Below are positions 4,777 to 62,874 of a DNA stretch of 64,000 nt, in pieces. The notes under the pieces were generated by a model that worked only from the letters and a program-made list of their open reading frames with translations, was not told the origin of the DNA and ran no database searches. Position numbers and translations under genes: made by a program. Every line of letters begins with the position of its first letter. The stretch's first letter is position 1. Source of the DNA: Eledone cirrhosa (Eukaryota); NCBI GenBank assembly GCA_964016885.1, contig OZ024744.1:102238001-102302000 (forward strand), in the 5' to 3' direction.

Positions 4777-4996
4777 CCGTATATACTTGAATATAAGCTG
4801 ATCTGAATATAAGCACCCCCAACATCACCCTTCTATTTTATGTCTGGGAAATGGGTAAAAACCCAAACCCCATTTATAAGCCAAGGTAGCTAATCAACAC
4901 ATTATGTTTAGATGGTGTATATAAGCCAACTTTACCATTTTACAATAAATTTTTTGGGGGTCACATATTCCTCAGCGTACATTCGAGTGTGTAAGG
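4777..4996. mobile_element. Tc1/mariner(pogo)-type MITE
   Basis: TA-CCGTATATACTTGAATATAAGC left end, decayed complementary right end; related copies at about 12847-13043 and 21771-21971. Confidence 0.6.
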
Positions 4997-5023
4997 AAGC
5001 TATATATAAATTTGAGTGACTTC

Positions 5024-8000
5024 CGTCACACACTAGAGATGACTGAGGAAAGAAGGGGTGATGACGTCACACACTAGAGATGACTGAGGAAGGAAGGGGT
5101 GATGACGTCACACACTAGAGATGGCTGAGGAAGGAAGGGGTGATGACATCACACGCTAGAGATGACTAAGGAAGGAAGGGGTGATGACGTCACACACTAG
5201 AGATGACTGAAGAAGGAAGGGGTGATGACGTCACATACTAGAGATGACTGAGGAAGGAAGGGGTGATGACGTCACACACTAGAGATGACTGAGGAAGGAA
5301 GGGGTGATGACATCACACGCTAGAGATGACTAAGGAAGGAAGGGGTGATGACGTCACACACTAGAGATGACTGAGGAAGGAAGGGGTGATGACATCACAC
5401 ACTAGAGATGACTGAGACTGAGAAAAGAAGGGGTGATGACGTCACACACTAGAGATGACTGAGGAAGGAAGGGGTGATGACGTCACACACTAGAGATGAC
5501 TGAGGAAGGAAGGGGTGATGACATCACACGCTAGAGATGACTAAGGAAGGAAGGGGTGATGACGTCACACTAGAGAGGACTGAGGAAGGAAGGGGTGATG
5601 ACGTCACACACTAGAGATGACTGAGGAAGGAAGGGGTGATGACGTCACACACTAGAGATGACTGAGGAAAGAAGGGGTGATGACGTCACACACTAGAGAT
5701 GACTGAGGAAGGAAGAGGTGATGACATCACACGCTAGAGATGACTGAGGAAGGAAGGGGTGATGACGTCACACTAGAGAGGACTGAGGAAGGAAGGGGTG
5801 ATGACGTCACACACTAGAGATGACTGAGGAAGGAAGGGGTGATGACGTCACACACTAGAGATGACTGAGGAAAGAAGGGGTGATAACGTCACACACTAGA
5901 GATGACTGAGGAAGGAAGAGGTGATGACATCACACGCTAGAGATGACTGAGGAAGGAAGGGGTGATGACGTCACACTAGAGAGGACTGAGGAAGGAAGGG
6001 GTGATGACGTCACACTAGAGAGGACTGAGGAAGGAAGGGGTGATGACGTCACACACTAGAGATGACTGAGGAAGGAAGGGGTGATGACGTCACACACTAG
6101 AGATGACTGCGGAAAGGGGTGATGACGTCACACACTAGAGATGGCTGAGGAAGGAAGGGGTGATGACATCACACGCTAGAGATGACTAAGGAAGGAAGGG
6201 GTGATGACGTCACACACTAGAGATGACTGAAGAAGGAAGGGGTGATGACGTCACACACTAGAGATGACTGAGGAAGGAAGGGGTGATGACGTCACACACT
6301 AGAGATGACTGAGGAAGGAAGGGGTGATGACATCACACGCTAGAGATGACTAAGGAAGGAAGGGGTGATGACGTCACACACTAGAGATGACTGAGGAAGG
6401 AAGGGGTGATGACATCACACACTAGAGATGACTGAGACTGAGAAAAGAAGGGGTGATGACGTCACACACTAGAGATGACTAAGGAAGGAAGGGGTGATGA
6501 CGTCACACTAGAGAGGACTGAGGAAGGAAGGGGTGATGACGTCACACACTAGAGATGACTGAGGAAGGAAGGGGTGATGACGTCACACACTAGAGATGAC
6601 TGAGGAAAGAAGGGGTGATGACGTCACACACTAGAGATGACTGAGGAAGGAAGAGGTGATGACATCACACGCTAGAGATGACTGAGGAAGGAAGAGGTGA
6701 TGACATCACACGCTAGAGATGACTGAGGAAGGAAGGGGTGATGACGTCACACTAGAGAGGACTGAGGAAGGAAGGGGTGATGACGTCACACACTAGAGAT
6801 GACTGAGGAAGGAAGGGGTGATGACGTCACACACTAGAGATGACTGAGGAAAGAAGGGGTGATAACGTCACACACTAGAGATGACTGAGGAAGGAAGAGG
6901 TGATGACATCACACGCTAGAGATGACTGAGGAAGGAAGGGGTGATGACGTCACACTAGAGAGGACTGAGGAAGGAAGGGGTGATGACGTCACACACTAGA
7001 GATGACTGAGGAAGGAAGGGGTGATGACGTCACACACTAGAGATGACTGAGGAAAGAAGGGGTGATGACGTCACACACTAGAGATGACTGAGGAAGGAAG
7101 AGGTGATGACATCACACGCTAGAGATGACTGAGGAAGGAAGGGGTGATGACGTCACACACTAGAGATGACTGAGGAAGGAAGGGGTGATGACATCACATA
7201 CTAGAGATGACTGGGGAAGGAAGGGGTGCTGACGTCACATACTAGAGATGACTGAGGGAGGAAGGGGTGATGACGTCACACACTAGAGATGACTGAGGAA
7301 GGAAGGGATGATGACGGCACATACTGGAGATGACTGGGGAAGGAAGGGGTGATGACATCACATACTAGAGATGACTGAGGAAGGAAGGGGTGATGACATC
7401 ACATAGTAGAGATGACTGAGGAAGGAAGGGGTGATGACGTCACATACTGGAGATGACTGAGGAAGGAAGAGGTGATGACGTCACACACTAGAGATGACTA
7501 AGGAAGGAAGGGGTGATGACGTCACACACTAGAGATGACTGAGGAAGGAAGGGGTGATGACGTCACACACTAGAGATGACTGAGGAAGGAAGGGGTGATG
7601 ACGTCACACACTAGAGATGACTGAGGAAAGAAGGGGTGATGACGTCACACACTAGAGATGACTGAGGAAGGAAGAGGTGATGACATCACACGCTAGAGAT
7701 GACTGAGGAAGGAAGGGGTGATGACGTCACACACTAGAGATGACTGAGGAAGGAAGGGGTGATGACATCACATACTAGAGATGACTGGGGAAGGAAGGGG
7801 TGCTGACGTCACACACTAGAGATGACTGAGGAAAGGGGTGATGACATCACATACTAGAGATGACTGAGGAAGGAAGGGGTAATGACGTCACACTAGAGAG
7901 GACTGAGGAAGGAAGGGGTGCTGACGTCACATACTAGAGATGACTGAGGAAGGAAGGGGTGATGGTGTCACACACTAGAGATGACTGAGGAAGGAAGGGG

Positions 8001-9664: not shown

Positions 9665-9910
9665 AAAATTAAGATAAATCAAATGAATTTAATCTAAATC
9701 AAAATTATGGGTGTCATGCCAGAAAGACATGCGGCATATCACCCGTAAAATAAGCTCTAAGATTCTAACGAGTAGATCCGAGCATTTTATAATAACTAGA
9801 GATTGATTAACATATAAATAAACATGAATAATCACAGTAGATAATTTTTACAAGTGTATAACCACACATAGATATAGATATATAAATATGGATACAGATA
9901 TATTGGATAT

Positions 9911-9937
<27 letters not shown>

Positions 9938-9944
<7 letters not shown>

Positions 9945-10302
9945 AAAAAAAGATGAAATCGAAAATGCAACTGGAGTCTTATTTTTTTTTTAAATATATA
10001 TATTTATTTGGTTACTTTACCGGTTTCGCAGTTCTTCTGCTTTTCAAAAGTAGAGTTGAGATGGAGGGTCTGTGGTTTTTCTCACATCTGATGTGAGAAA
10101 AACCACAGACCCTCCATCTCAATTCTACTTTTGAAAAGCAGAAGAACTGCGAAACCGGTAAAGTAACCAAATAAATATATATATTTTTTTTTTAAATAAG
10201 ACTCCAGTTGCATTTTCGATTTCATCTTTTTTTCTTTATACTTTCACTCGTGTAGGACACCTCGGTTATTTTTCATTTTGTAAAAAAAAACTCACTTTCT
10301 AA
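9938..10302. mobile_element. Fold-back Penelope-like mini-element (about 150-bp arms, centre 10089) in (TA)n
   Basis: Near-perfect palindrome 9938-10088/10090-10240 plus a unique right tail; hammerhead motif in each arm. Confidence 0.75.
10126..10165 (+). ncRNA. Minimal type-I hammerhead ribozyme, U3-A8 core variant (mirror copy at 10013-10052, minus)
   Basis: TACTT-TTGAAAA-GCAG(AAGAA)CTGC-GAAA-CCGG-TA-AAGTA: 5-bp stem I, 4-bp stem II, palindromic stem III, GUA cleavage triplet. Confidence 0.72.
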
Positions 10303-10778
10303 TATATAGATATATATATAGATATAGATATATATATAAATTGGATATAGATATATAAATACGGCTCCTTAATTGTAGAGTTAACTCTGTTGAAAGGACT
10401 CGACTGCTGTTTCTAGTTGTCGATAACCCTATTCACGCCACTGGAACGAAGCTAGTATGATGTGTGTATTTCTAGTAAATACTACACATGTTGGCCAGTC
10501 ACTGATTTGAACTTGAAGTGTAAACACGGATTGCTGGAAACTTCTTCCTTGTTGATAATTCAAGTCTCCACTTCTGTGGTTTACCATCCGATTAATTGGT
10601 GAAATATATTTCTTTAATGGAATATATACAGGGAAGATTAATCATATTATAAGGTATCTATTTTTGAAGTTCTGGTCAACTTTATTTAGTTACCTACCTA
10701 GCTATGTGTGGTTACACACTTGTAAAAATTATCTCCTGTGATTATTCATGTTTATTTATATGTTAATCAATCTCTAGT

Positions 10779-10814
<36 letters not shown>

Positions 10815-11489: not shown

Positions 11490-11600
11490 CTGAAGTAGAA
11501 AAAAAAATGGAAAAAGAAAAAGTAAATAATAAGGAAACCATTGATTGAACTTGGTCACATATACATGTATGTATGTATGTATGTGTATAAATATATATAT

Positions 11601-12021
11601 ATAATTCAAAATGTTAACAAATGAAAAATATTCTCATAATCAAAATATATACTTTATTATATATATTTCAAAGGTACTGTGTTGTTTTTTCAGTACATCC
11701 TCATCAGACAAAATATATGATTTGATATATGACACACTGCTACGTTCTTGATTATTCAATTCCAGTACTGCCAATACTGGAATTGAATAATCAAGACTGC
11801 AGCGGTATGTCATATATCAAATCATATATTTTGTCTGAAACAACACAGTACCTTTGAAATATATATAATAAAGTATATATTTTGATTATGCGAATATTTT
11901 TCATTTGTTAACATTTTAAATAATATTAAAAACTCCAGGAAAACCTTGACTGTTGAGTGCTTCTAATCTATTGTAAAATTGTATTCGTTGAGTAATCAAC
12001 GAACCATACTAATCTTTGGTT
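11601..12021. mobile_element. Fold-back element (arms about 11608-11767/11775-11917 plus tail) in (TA)n; same family as 60913-61172
   Basis: Long imperfect inverted repeat; the left arm has a CTGATGA...GAAA remnant on the minus strand. Confidence 0.65.
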
Positions 12022-59060: not shown

Positions 59061-60060
59061 GTAAGAAGAACTTACTATAAACCACTGAGTTATGATTGGA
59101 CAAAATAGCAATGGGGGGGGGGGGGTAACTTTAGGAGAAGGTTAGTTTTTAGGAAGGGTCCAACAGAATGAGGGATATACGGGATTGATAAAATAAAGTA
59201 CTAGTAATACACTGGGATAATTGCTGGCCTTGTGCCAAAAGTAGAAACAATTATTAAAAACATGTGAAATAGAAAAGGAAAATCTGAGAGAAAAAAGAGA
59301 TTAGATTCTAAACGGACATAACAGATTAAATATTACTGGCCAAATGGAAAAACAGACAAAAGTGGGTTGCTTACATTCTCAAATCGACAAGTTGGCAGCA
59401 AAGAGATTAGATAAATTCTGGCCTTAGAACCCTACAGAGTTTATTTTATATTTGCGGAGAGAAGAGGGGGGGGGTGTCAGTGAGAAGGTGTAAGCGTATA
59501 AACAATATGTGAGAGAGAGAGAGAGGGGAGGAAGATTCTAGAAATAAAATAATAATAACAATGGGGTAACTTTAGGAGAAGGTTAGTTTTCAGGAAGGAT
59601 CCAACAGAACGAGGCATATTATTTTTTTTAAAAAAATGAGTTATATGCTTTGTTGATTATTCAACAGAGTTATGTTCATAACAGATATGAAGCACTCTAC
59701 AGTAGAAATTTTATCTGGAGTATTATAATATTATTAATAGTAATAAATGGAAAATATCACTATAGCATCCTATATATTTTTATTATACGTATTTCAAGGA
59801 TGCTAAATTATAGTATGCTTTCATCAGATAAAATATAATTTTTGATGTATAAGATAGTGACATACCTGAAATATAAGCCTTTAACTTTGGCTTACAGTGG
59901 GCATGTCGTTGGACCATATATATATCAAAAGTAGAAAAAATTATATTCGAATCTCATATGAGAGTATAGATAGATATATGAGATTAAATGCTTGGCGTAA
60001 ACGTATTTAATAAACGTAACTTGATTCTCCTACTTTAAATCCTGATTATATATATATATA

Positions 60061-60836
60061 GTGGTGGAACACTGGAAGGTAATATCCGTAGTAGTAGAGC
60101 ACTCAGTCCATGGGACGAGTTAGGTAGAAGTGGTTACACAACAGTTAGTTCACCATACCGAGAACAATTGTTTCACCTTCGCGGATCTTCAGCTCGGGAT
60201 GTGTATAATTATAGGAACAGGAAGGACAACCGTACGAACGCGCATGCGCAGAAACTCGATCACTTCACACAGGCAATACTAGACTGCGTGCGGGAGGTGT
60301 AAGGGAGAACCACCAGTCTACCTTCAGATACCCGGACAGATGTTCATCCACGTATGGTCCCTCAAGGACTCAAGTCTAGGGTACTCCATTCAATGGAAAG
60401 CCATCACTAAGTCCAAGCCATACGCAAGGGGAAATCCGACGTCTGGCTTATGTATTGACGAACGAATAACTATCCTAAAGAGATTACACAATAGTGATTG
60501 CCTAAACACGAGGAGTGAATTTTTCACACGTTGTCCACACATCACCAAACATCTATTGCATAACTACAAGGCTCCAGATTGATTCTTTGTAATTTTATTT
60601 TAAATTTTTTAAAATTTTATTTACAACCTAAAAACTTTCTGGACTTTCGCAGTTATCTCCCTTACACCTCCTGCACGTAGTCTAGTATTGCCTGTGTGAA
60701 GTGACCGAGTTTCTGCGCATGCGCGTTCGTACGGTTGTCCTTCCTGTTCCTATAACCATACACATCCCGAGCTGAAGATCCGCGAAGGTGAAACAATTGT
60801 TCTCGGTATGGTGAACTAACTGTTGTGTAACCACTT
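60061..60836 (+). mobile_element. Penelope-like element remnant: GIY-YIG C-terminus between 181-bp inverted pseudo-LTRs, in (TA)n
   Basis: Arms 60128-60308/60656-60836 (5 mismatches); ORF 60340..60582, HVWSLKD..YSIQW....KPY...LCIDE...LNTRSE...CPH; hammerhead in each arm. Confidence 0.85.
60767..60806 (+). ncRNA. Minimal type-I hammerhead ribozyme (mirror copy at 60158-60197, minus)
   Basis: CCGAG-CTGAAGA-TCC(GCGAA)GGT-GAAA-CAATTG-TT-CTCGG; palindromic AACAATTGTT stem III. Confidence 0.78.
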
Positions 60837-60912
60837 ATATATATATATGGAATACTGTTAGCTTCTCGCTAAAACAATTTCTATACCTTTCATTTATATA
60901 TATATATATATT

Positions 60913-61172
60913 TAAAGGTAAAACAAGATTCAATGAATAAATCAAAGAATGAGTTTTACAATAGATTGGAAGCACTCAACAGAAGTGCTTTTCCGGAGTT
61001 ATTAATATTAATTCAAAATATTAACAAAAATAGACATTCGTGTGATCAAATATATTTTATTATACATATTTCAGAGGTACTGTTGAAGATAGCTCAGTAC
61101 CTCTGAAATATGTATAATAAAATATACTTGATCACATGAATGTCTATTTTTGTTAATATTTTGAATTAATAT
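60913..61172. mobile_element. Fold-back element (78-bp arms, 61005-61082/61095-61172); same family as 11601-12021, opposite orientation
   Basis: Inverted repeat with 2 mismatches; the tail is homologous to the reverse complement of 11920-11985. Confidence 0.7.
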
Positions 61173-61180
61173 ATATATAT

Positions 61181-61522: not shown

Positions 61523-61765
61523 AACAAAGTGAGAGTGAGGAGATACAGAGGAAGGTATAAACTTGACTGTCACCCCAAGTGGTTTCGGCTTGTGTTCAGC
61601 AAGCCTTTCAAAGGGTGTACACCCGTGCAAAGGCTTGCTGAACATAAGCCGAAACCACTTGGTATTGCAGTCAAGTTTTAACCTTCCTCTATATCCACTC
61701 TGCTTCTTCCGATGCATTCAGTATTCCCATATGTGGTCTACCTGGTCACTGCACCATAGGTTTTC
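61523..61765. mobile_element. Fold-back element (palindrome 61542-61695, zero spacer) with degenerate hammerhead arms
   Basis: Centre GGGTGT|ACACCC; each arm has GGCTTG..AAGCC-GAAA-CCACTTGG. Confidence 0.62.
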
Positions 61766-61869: not shown

Positions 61870-61903
<34 letters not shown>

Positions 61904-62021
61904 ATTGTTTCTACTTTAGGCACAAGGCCAGCAATTACCCATAATATATATATAATGTATACATAATATATATACACATAATGTATACATATATATTTCT
62001 ATACATGTGTATATATATATA

Positions 62022-62410: not shown

Positions 62411-62691
62411 CTCCCGGTGATTTTGGATGGCCATTGACTCATAAGAGCTCCTTTGCCATTTGACAGGTTTTGTTTTTAGTCCTGCAGGATGTCCAAAGTC
62501 ACCCTCCTCACCAAGAAACCTTGGTGGGGTTGCCAGTTTAGTCGCCAACGACCCGACCATGGGACAGGTTGTACTGGAATACATGTTACCAGTAGCACCA
62601 ACTGGTGACCTGACATCATCATCACCGTTTTATGTCCGTTCTTCCACGTTAGCATGGGTTGTGTGTATATATATACATATGTGTGTATATA

Positions 62692-62874
62692 TATAATTGT
62701 TTCTACTTTTGGCACAAGGCCAGCAAATACCCAGTACATTACTGGTACTTTATTTTATCGAACCCTTAAGGATGAAAGGCAAAGTTAACCTCGGCGGGAT
62801 TTGAACTCAGATCGTAAAGGGACGTAACTCCTTTCGTCAAAGCATGGCGTCCGACCCTCTACTGATACTGCCAA
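62692..62874 (-). mobile_element. SINE family 2 copy
   Basis: Reverse complement of the family consensus. Confidence 0.85.

What the first reader, a model, noticed from the sequence alone, without database searches (positions are those of the whole stretch)
60061..60836. Key element: Penelope-like GIY-YIG remnant between inverted pseudo-LTRs, each carrying a hammerhead ribozyme
Seen: 181-bp inverted arms in a (TA)n tract. Each arm has a complete minimal type-I hammerhead (CUGAAGA/GAAA core, 5-bp stem I CCGAG/CUCGG, palindromic stem III AACAAUUGUU, GUU site; stem II is weak). The arms bracket an 80-aa ORF resembling the C-terminus of PLE GIY-YIG endonucleases. Known: PLE pLTRs carry small hammerheads that cleave as dimers, and PLE copies often have inverted pLTRs. 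Inference: this copy links the protein-less palindromes elsewhere in the window to PLE retrotransposition.
Basis: partly seen in the sequence, partly recalled or inferred. Interest (0 to 1): 0.8.

Follow-up and report, generated by a model that had tools for sequence, protein, structure and literature searches.

The report
Dead back-to-back Penelope-like retrotransposon copy
This is a broken, back-to-back copy of an abundant Penelope-like jumping gene whose ends carry a predicted but untested hammerhead ribozyme; the copy is ordinary, but its relatives almost always pair one long end with one short end, which likely reflects how these elements insert.

Summary
The 776 bases are a 5'-truncated, back-to-back insertion of a ~2.58-kb Hydra-clade Penelope-like element (PLE) in (TA)n. 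Full-length relatives encode RT plus a C-terminal domain whose model matches GIY-YIG nucleases (I-TevI, Z 9.3) and sit in pLTR–ORF–pLTR tandems. The genome holds 5,786 exact copies of an end 30-mer. Corrections: the 80-aa ORF is debris (its ATG and frame are copy-specific; the GIY-YIG motif is absent). The two hammerheads lie on opposite strands, so they cannot form a cis dimer. Stems show no covariation within the family. The hammerhead has the Hydra-type U·U and only 2 Watson–Crick pairs in stem II; activity is untested. New here: in a position-ordered sample, 36 of 38 classifiable back-to-back pairs had one tailed and one short end (about half expected by chance). Both arms usually came from one subfamily, and copies rarely start at the ribozyme cut site. 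36 of 42 pairs are short palindromes without ORF. One other window palindrome is tied to a different PLE family; two are untied. New member of a known kind; modest interest.

The parts
60047..60060 (.). (TA)n target, left side
   Evidence: sequence
60061..60127 (-). PLE tail (64-67 nt), long 3' end of the left arm; in tandem copies it runs on through a 156-nt 5' UTR to the ORF's ATG
60128..60308 (-). Left arm: inverted, 5'-truncated pLTR/3' UTR
60158..60197 (-). Type-I minimal hammerhead motif, left arm; predicted cut 3' of 60163 on the minus strand
   Evidence: activity untested
60307..60308 (.). 2-nt microhomology (GA) at the junction of the two arms
60307..60582 (+). Dead 3' end of the RT-EN ORF: C-terminal part of the GIY-YIG domain (conserved E, N, CxH kept; CxxC changed to SxxC; 16-nt deletion; GIY-YIG motif absent). 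The ATG at 60340 is copy-specific
60583..60836 (+). 3' UTR/pLTR of the right copy, ending at the short 3' end; 60656-60836 is the part mirrored by the left arm
60767..60806 (+). Type-I minimal hammerhead motif, right arm; predicted cut after 60801; the commonest form among the fetched loci
   Evidence: activity untested
60837..60848 (.). (TA)n target, right side
   Evidence: sequence

Best explanation
This is a dead, 5'-truncated, back-to-back insertion of a Hydra-clade Penelope-like retrotransposon in a (TA)n tract, likely made when the element's protein primed reverse transcription from both cut DNA ends at two fixed sites of an uncleaved tandem RNA. Shown: the family (RT + GIY-YIG ORF, ~2.58-kb tandem unit, order 3' UTR - hammerhead - tail - 5' UTR - ATG), the TA target, two discrete 3' ends about 67 nt apart, the one-tailed/one-short rule in back-to-back pairs, and the 2-nt junction microhomology. 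Inferred: the endonuclease cuts both strands of (TA)n; one end primes at the long site and the other at the short site; both cDNAs stop early (248 and 530 nt here) and are joined by microhomology. The hammerhead is a lineage feature that would work only as a dimer or with the element's protein, in tandem transcripts. In this inverted copy it is most likely silent.
For: Relatives at 92-94% identity continue into RT-EN ORFs. Hydra motifs in 112-120 of 120 homologues. The model of the intact EN domain has GIY-YIG nucleases as its top hits: I-TevI Z 9.3, rmsd 2.4, 90 aligned; T4 EndoII Z 7.2; UvrC Z 6.1. Tandem continuity through the tail to the ATG in most of 30 loci; hammerhead spacing 2577-2584 nt at three C1 tandems. 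Position-ordered sample of 128 arms: 59 short and 62 long ends. Strict re-classing of 42 back-to-back pairs: 36 short+tail, 2 tail+tail (one is two separate insertions), 0 short+short, 4 unclear; a binomial test on the first classing (35 of 37) gave p 5e-9 against 0.5. Arms agree in subfamily marks: loop II 19 of 19, downstream 21 of 23, N7 22 of 26, against shuffled means 0.61, 0.47, 0.47. 5,786 of 6,477 end matches keep the 4 nt 5' of the cut; of the first 100, only 2 begin within a few bases of it. Two RT start sites bounding the tail, cutting of both strands, a predicted dimer and uncleaved RNA as main template were reported for a Poseidon PLE (PMC11167929).
Against: No biochemical test of priming or cleavage was possible. 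Arm agreement cannot tell one RNA from two RNAs of one source locus, or from later gene conversion; some older palindromes have arms that differ at N7 or stem III (L162, L170, L173, L179). The sample is one 56-Mb stretch of contig C1, chosen by an exact 30-mer. No compensatory stem changes within the family; stem II has only 2 Watson-Crick pairs; Rfam does not recognise the motif. The best predicted dimer is a fully self-complementary duplex (-22.2 kcal/mol), below the hammerhead dimer (-17.2). Foldseek found no match at E<=0.001 and Pfam did not recognise the family protein. Clade placement rests on motifs and a by-eye comparison, not a tree.
Confidence: 0.9

Rival explanations
1. Same element, but the inverted arm arises by self-priming or fold-back (on a cDNA or an antisense template) rather than by priming from both DNA ends.
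For: Proposed for rotifer Penelopes because of palindromes at inverted junctions (PMC3846280, passages). Arms mostly share subfamily and sometimes private variants (L266, L273, L278). Family C palindromes in the window share a fixed hairpin centre.
Against: Junctions in this family vary from copy to copy and often lack a hairpin. Here the junction is a 2-nt microhomology between unequal arms. Simple fold-back does not by itself explain why the short arm stops at one fixed site.
Confidence: 0.25
2. The hammerhead motif is a decayed, inactive relic, kept because the same bases serve as a protein-binding or promoter site in the pLTR.
For: 2-bp stem II, no G10.1-C11.1 pair, no covariation, z-score 0.20, templates read through the cut site. 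The bases just downstream look equally constant.
Against: Subfamily-level changes fall at N7 (G 53, A 49, T 3, C 1 of 106), loop II and the outer stem I pair. Core positions other than C3 depart in at most 7% of arms; C3 departs in 18%, partly at truncation junctions. The same U·U architecture occurs in 14 of 25 Hydra families in the published table (counted by eye).
Confidence: 0.25
3. A DNA transposon or MITE with terminal inverted repeats that captured a PLE fragment.
For: Inverted arms and TA flanks.
Against: The arms are 3' ends of a retroelement with variable 5' truncation, unequal ends, solo copies (44 of 128 arms) and head-to-tail tandems.
Confidence: 0.01

Closest known systems
Hydra-clade PLEs, including Hydra-1_Obim (Craig et al. 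2021, PMC8557442; section 11, passages, supplement parts 1-2 and search hits seen)
   Same: Under 3 kb, single ORF, RWK-like and DKT motifs, CxCX5C linker, CxxC and CxH around E/N, no CCHH, hammerhead in the 3' end, (TA)n targets, inverted truncated 5' copies; N-terminus clearly alike by eye.
   Different: Different family: the hammerhead differs from the Hydra-1_Obim row, and an 11-nt hammerhead word and two peptide words gave 0 hits in the supplement. Stem II has 2 pairs against 3-7 in the table.
Minimal type-I hammerheads of metazoan PLEs (Cervera and de la Pena 2014, PMC4209133; parts 1-2 of 4 read)
   Same: Located in the pLTR, 5-bp stem I, palindromic stem III suited to dimers; opposite-strand pairs 100-700 bp apart were already noted there.
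   Different: That consensus has a long stem II (7-8 bp in Schistosoma) and G10.1-C11.1; here U·U plus 2 pairs.
PAc, Poseidon-clade PLE of Anolis (Frangieh et al. 2024, PMC11167929; parts 1-2 of 4 read)
   Same: Two RT start sites that bound the tail, AT-rich targets, uncleaved RNA as template.
   Different: Different clade. Tail 64-67 nt here against 30-40 typical. Hammerhead about 255 nt upstream of the ATG here, overlapping the ATG in PAc. The parts read do not report that the two sites are paired within one insertion.
Non-LTR retrozymes (bioRxiv 10.64898/2026.07.22.740005; part 1 of 5 read)
   Same: Protein-less, hammerhead-bearing, PLE-related.
   Different: Retrozymes are head-to-tail tandem repeats; the short forms here are back-to-back truncations of the autonomous element.

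Membership tests
EN+ Penelope-like elements | Single ORF with RT and C-terminal GIY-YIG endonuclease | tested here: met
   In relatives: 656-aa open frame from the ATG in L093, RT motifs, EN to the stop in L003/L009; fold match to I-TevI Z 9.3. The window copy keeps only the last ~90 codons, broken.
EN+ Penelope-like elements | Partial tandems forming pLTRs, inverted truncated copy, tail at one end | tested here: met
EN+ Penelope-like elements | Hammerhead motif in the pLTR | tested here: met
Hydra clade | RWK-like motif and DKT instead of DKG | tested here: met
   RWR and DKT in family ORFs; 118 of 120 homologues each
Hydra clade | CxCX5C linker; CxxC and CxH flanking E/N; no CCHH | tested here: met
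   CSCRKPEAC, CGLC, CPH in family ORFs; invariant columns C97, C100, E103, N118, C127, H129 in 38 sequences; absence of CCHH judged by eye
Hydra clade | Under 3 kb and inserted in (TA)n | tested here: met
   unit about 2.58 kb; TA follows 101 of 121 classed ends, TC 11, other 9
Hydra clade | RT phylogeny groups with published Hydra families | not tested
Type-I hammerhead ribozyme | Core CUGANGA/GAAA/NUH and three stems | tested here: met
   N7 and loop II are the variable sites; stem II only 2 pairs
Type-I hammerhead ribozyme | G10.1-C11.1 at the base of stem II | tested here: not met
   U·U here; the same in 14 of 25 published Hydra families
Type-I hammerhead ribozyme | Covariation in stems | tested here: inconclusive
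   0 of 11 pairs with two-sided change in 32 of 167 distinct arms; the stems hardly vary within the family, while stems I/II differ and still pair across published Hydra families
Type-I hammerhead ribozyme | Match to an Rfam hammerhead model | tested here: inconclusive
   No hammerhead row at E<=10; a minimal motif may fall outside the models
Type-I hammerhead ribozyme | Self-cleavage | not testable with these tools
   needs an in vitro assay

The most novel reading that the evidence does not exclude
PLE insertion is obligately two-ended: a dimeric RT-endonuclease assigns one cut DNA end to the long start site and the other to the short start site of the same uncleaved RNA. That rule, seen in 36 of 38 pairs, would explain the PLE tail, the inverted pLTRs and thousands of hammerhead-bearing palindromes in this genome. 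The family would also carry a working hammerhead with only two Watson-Crick pairs in stem II.
Probability: 0.45. Interest if true: 0.55.

Novelty: new member of a known kind. Interest (0 to 1): 0.3.

Why it matters
The copy itself is ordinary transposon debris. The family is useful because thousands of short insertions record both ends of each event. The near-strict pairing of a tailed with a short end puts a number on a feature known only as 'optionally present at one of the inverted pLTRs' (PMC3846280) and gives a testable constraint on the unsolved PLE integration mechanism. It also warns that many AT-flanked hairpins in this genome, which look like MITEs or miRNA precursors, are PLE ends.

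Tried and rejected
Rfam: the whole-window scan was swamped by AT-repeat miRNA hits (only 150 of 379 rows shown); the local scan found no hammerhead. Pfam missed the ORF and the family protein. Foldseek found nothing at E<=0.001; T4 EndoII was rank 9. Rejected: that the ~250-nt palindromes are a separate non-autonomous family; L189 shows their leader continuing into a diverged form of the same 3' UTR. Not supported as a rule: that the two arms come from different templates. Not supported: that 5' truncations cluster at the ribozyme cut. No ORF link for family C: Hydra ORFs near 30 tail loci were neighbours or inverted pieces, and the one followed to its 3' end (L292) did not match family C or the window. 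Palindrome 61542-61695: 213 candidates, no hammerhead seen, no ORF link. The first end classing mislabelled L196; it was redone strictly. L196 and L269 were left out of the concordance count. Lunse et al. 2017 (PMC5785218) was not held and was seen only as cited in PMC6765202 (passages); it may describe hammerheads with such short stems II. Earlier findings of this scan: none returned. Literature searches turned up no count of tail pairing; papers were read only in part and most subscription papers are not held.

Full report
Observation. The window holds two 181-nt inverted arms (60128-60308, 60656-60836; 5 substitutions) between TA runs. Each carries the same 40-nt type-I hammerhead motif, on opposite strands, with a predicted cut after 60801. 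Rfam did not recognise it and it folds no better than shuffles. The 80-aa ORF exists, had no Pfam hit, and scored 56 bits against an HMM of 119 outside homologues.

The family. A search of the own genome gave 3,903 candidates, 40 scored, with 92-94% identity over the right 530 nt. Upstream these continue into an RT and endonuclease ORF. The longest frame from the ATG was 656 aa (L093); no fully intact ORF was seen in the 20 near-full-length loci examined. It found 1,080 homologues at E<=1e-10 among 7,999 scored candidates. A model of the intact endonuclease domain (pLDDT 92.9) matched I-TevI (Z 9.3, rmsd 2.4, 90 aligned), T4 EndoII and UvrC in the wide structural search; Foldseek alone found nothing significant. 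The motifs (RWR, DKT, CxCX5C, CxxC, CxH, no CCHH), the size and the TA target fit the Hydra clade as defined in PMC8557442. Hydra-1_Obim is a visible relative by eye but has a different hammerhead. The host was not identified.

Architecture. Copies with a 5' end show the canonical partial tandem: 3' UTR, hammerhead, tail, 156-nt 5' UTR, ATG, with a unit of about 2.58 kb. So 60061-60127 is the tail. The window copy is a tailed 248-nt arm joined back to back, through a GA microhomology, to a 530-nt arm that ends at the short site. Its ORF is debris: a C>T change makes the ATG, a 16-nt deletion between short repeats shifts the frame, CxxC is broken and the GIY-YIG motif is missing.

What the relatives add. 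An end 30-mer occurs 5,786 times exactly. I took the first 100 matches on C1 with their surroundings, which gave 128 arms. Ends are bimodal: 59 short, 62 long, 7 other. Of 42 back-to-back pairs, strict classing gave 36 short+tail, 2 tail+tail (one being two separate insertions), no short+short and 4 unclear; independent choice would give about half mixed. Only 21 of 128 arms have sense ORF sequence within up to 900 nt upstream, and 36 of 42 pairs have under 140 nt between cut sites, so protein-less palindromes are the commonest form of this family. Arms agree in subfamily marks far above shuffles, with exceptions among older copies. Few arms begin at the cut site: 5,786 of 6,477 matches keep the 4 upstream bases, and 2 of the first 100 start within a few bases of the cut. 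A tail on one of the inverted pLTRs (PMC3846280) and two RT start sites bounding it (PMC11167929) are published; I found no count of their pairing in searches.

The ribozyme. Across subfamilies the variable sites are N7, loop II (GCGAA, GCUAA, GCAUAA, GAAUAA), the outer stem I pair and the centre of stem III. There are no compensatory changes. The U·U at the base of stem II occurs in 14 of 25 Hydra families in the published table and a U at the cut site in 10 of 25, but stem II there has 3-7 pairs against 2 here (counted by eye). The monomer hammerhead fold is weak (-1.7 against an MFE of -6.7 kcal/mol); the dimer form is -17.2 against -22.2 for a competing duplex; in the whole insert all 40 bases pair with the other arm. 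Activity is plausible by analogy and is untested.

Other palindromes. None is homologous to this family. 9938-10240 carries a U3-A8 hammerhead variant (covariation described in PMC4209133). In 8 of 31 fetched loci of its family (some overlapping) that end follows a GIY-YIG ORF about 1.1 kb upstream or on the inverted arm; its linker looks Neptune-like (recalled, not tested). 11599-11926 and 61005-61172 belong to a hammerhead-, tail- and TA-bearing group with thousands of ends whose ORF I did not find.

Verdict. A real, correctly recognised PLE remnant: a new family in a known clade, with a known ribozyme type and a known architecture. Confidence in identity about 0.97; in two-ended priming about 0.6; in ribozyme activity as a dimer or with protein about 0.65. 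Interest 0.3.

Noticed in passing
window 9938-10240 (long end to about 10341): Back-to-back ends of a second PLE family with a U3-A8 variant hammerhead (4-bp stem II, palindromic stem III); relatives L156, L157, L113 carry a GIY-YIG ORF about 1.1 kb upstream; 569 candidates.
   Followed up: yes
window 11599-11926: Hammerhead-bearing palindrome family C, 2,240 candidates; many copies share one fixed fold-back centre at a small hairpin, unlike the variable junctions of the main family; short and tailed ends in TA; no ORF found.
   Followed up: partly
window 60920-61177: Relative of family C right beside the finding: palindrome centred in stem II of its hammerhead plus a tail at about 60920-61004; the tail 17-mer occurs 2,264 times exactly.
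   Followed up: partly
window about 59660-59840 (-): Degenerate hammerhead-like motif (core at 59827) and a tail-like match to 60946-60992; probably an old family C relative.
   Followed up: no
window about 31133-31168 (+): Isolated minimal hammerhead motif with a 4-bp stem I and palindromic ACGU stem III; similar short repeats appear in L096.
   Followed up: no
window 61542-61695: 154-nt imperfect palindrome, family of 213 candidates at 70-87% identity, no hammerhead or ORF link seen.
   Followed up: partly
window 9788-9888 and 10683-10785: A further pair of 103-nt inverted arms (92%) enclosing the 9938-10240 palindrome.
   Followed up: no
L155 about 4990-7155 (+); L158, L159, L292, L302, L305, L309, L313: Several other Hydra-clade families in the same genome, some near full length.
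   Followed up: partly
L077 and other tandems, between hammerhead and ATG: A GT donor-like site inside the 3' strand of stem I and a pyrimidine-AG acceptor-like site in the 5' UTR hint at an intron as in Drosophila Penelope; seen by eye only.
   Followed up: no
L196 and L278: L196: both arms continue into the same foreign sequence instead of TA or tail. L278: both arms share one tail deletion and both are tailed.
   Followed up: no
window 42137-42495: Three 152-nt tandem units, each with a 55-nt hairpin; pieces recur near 59178-59254, 61886-61941 and 62678-62768.
   Followed up: no
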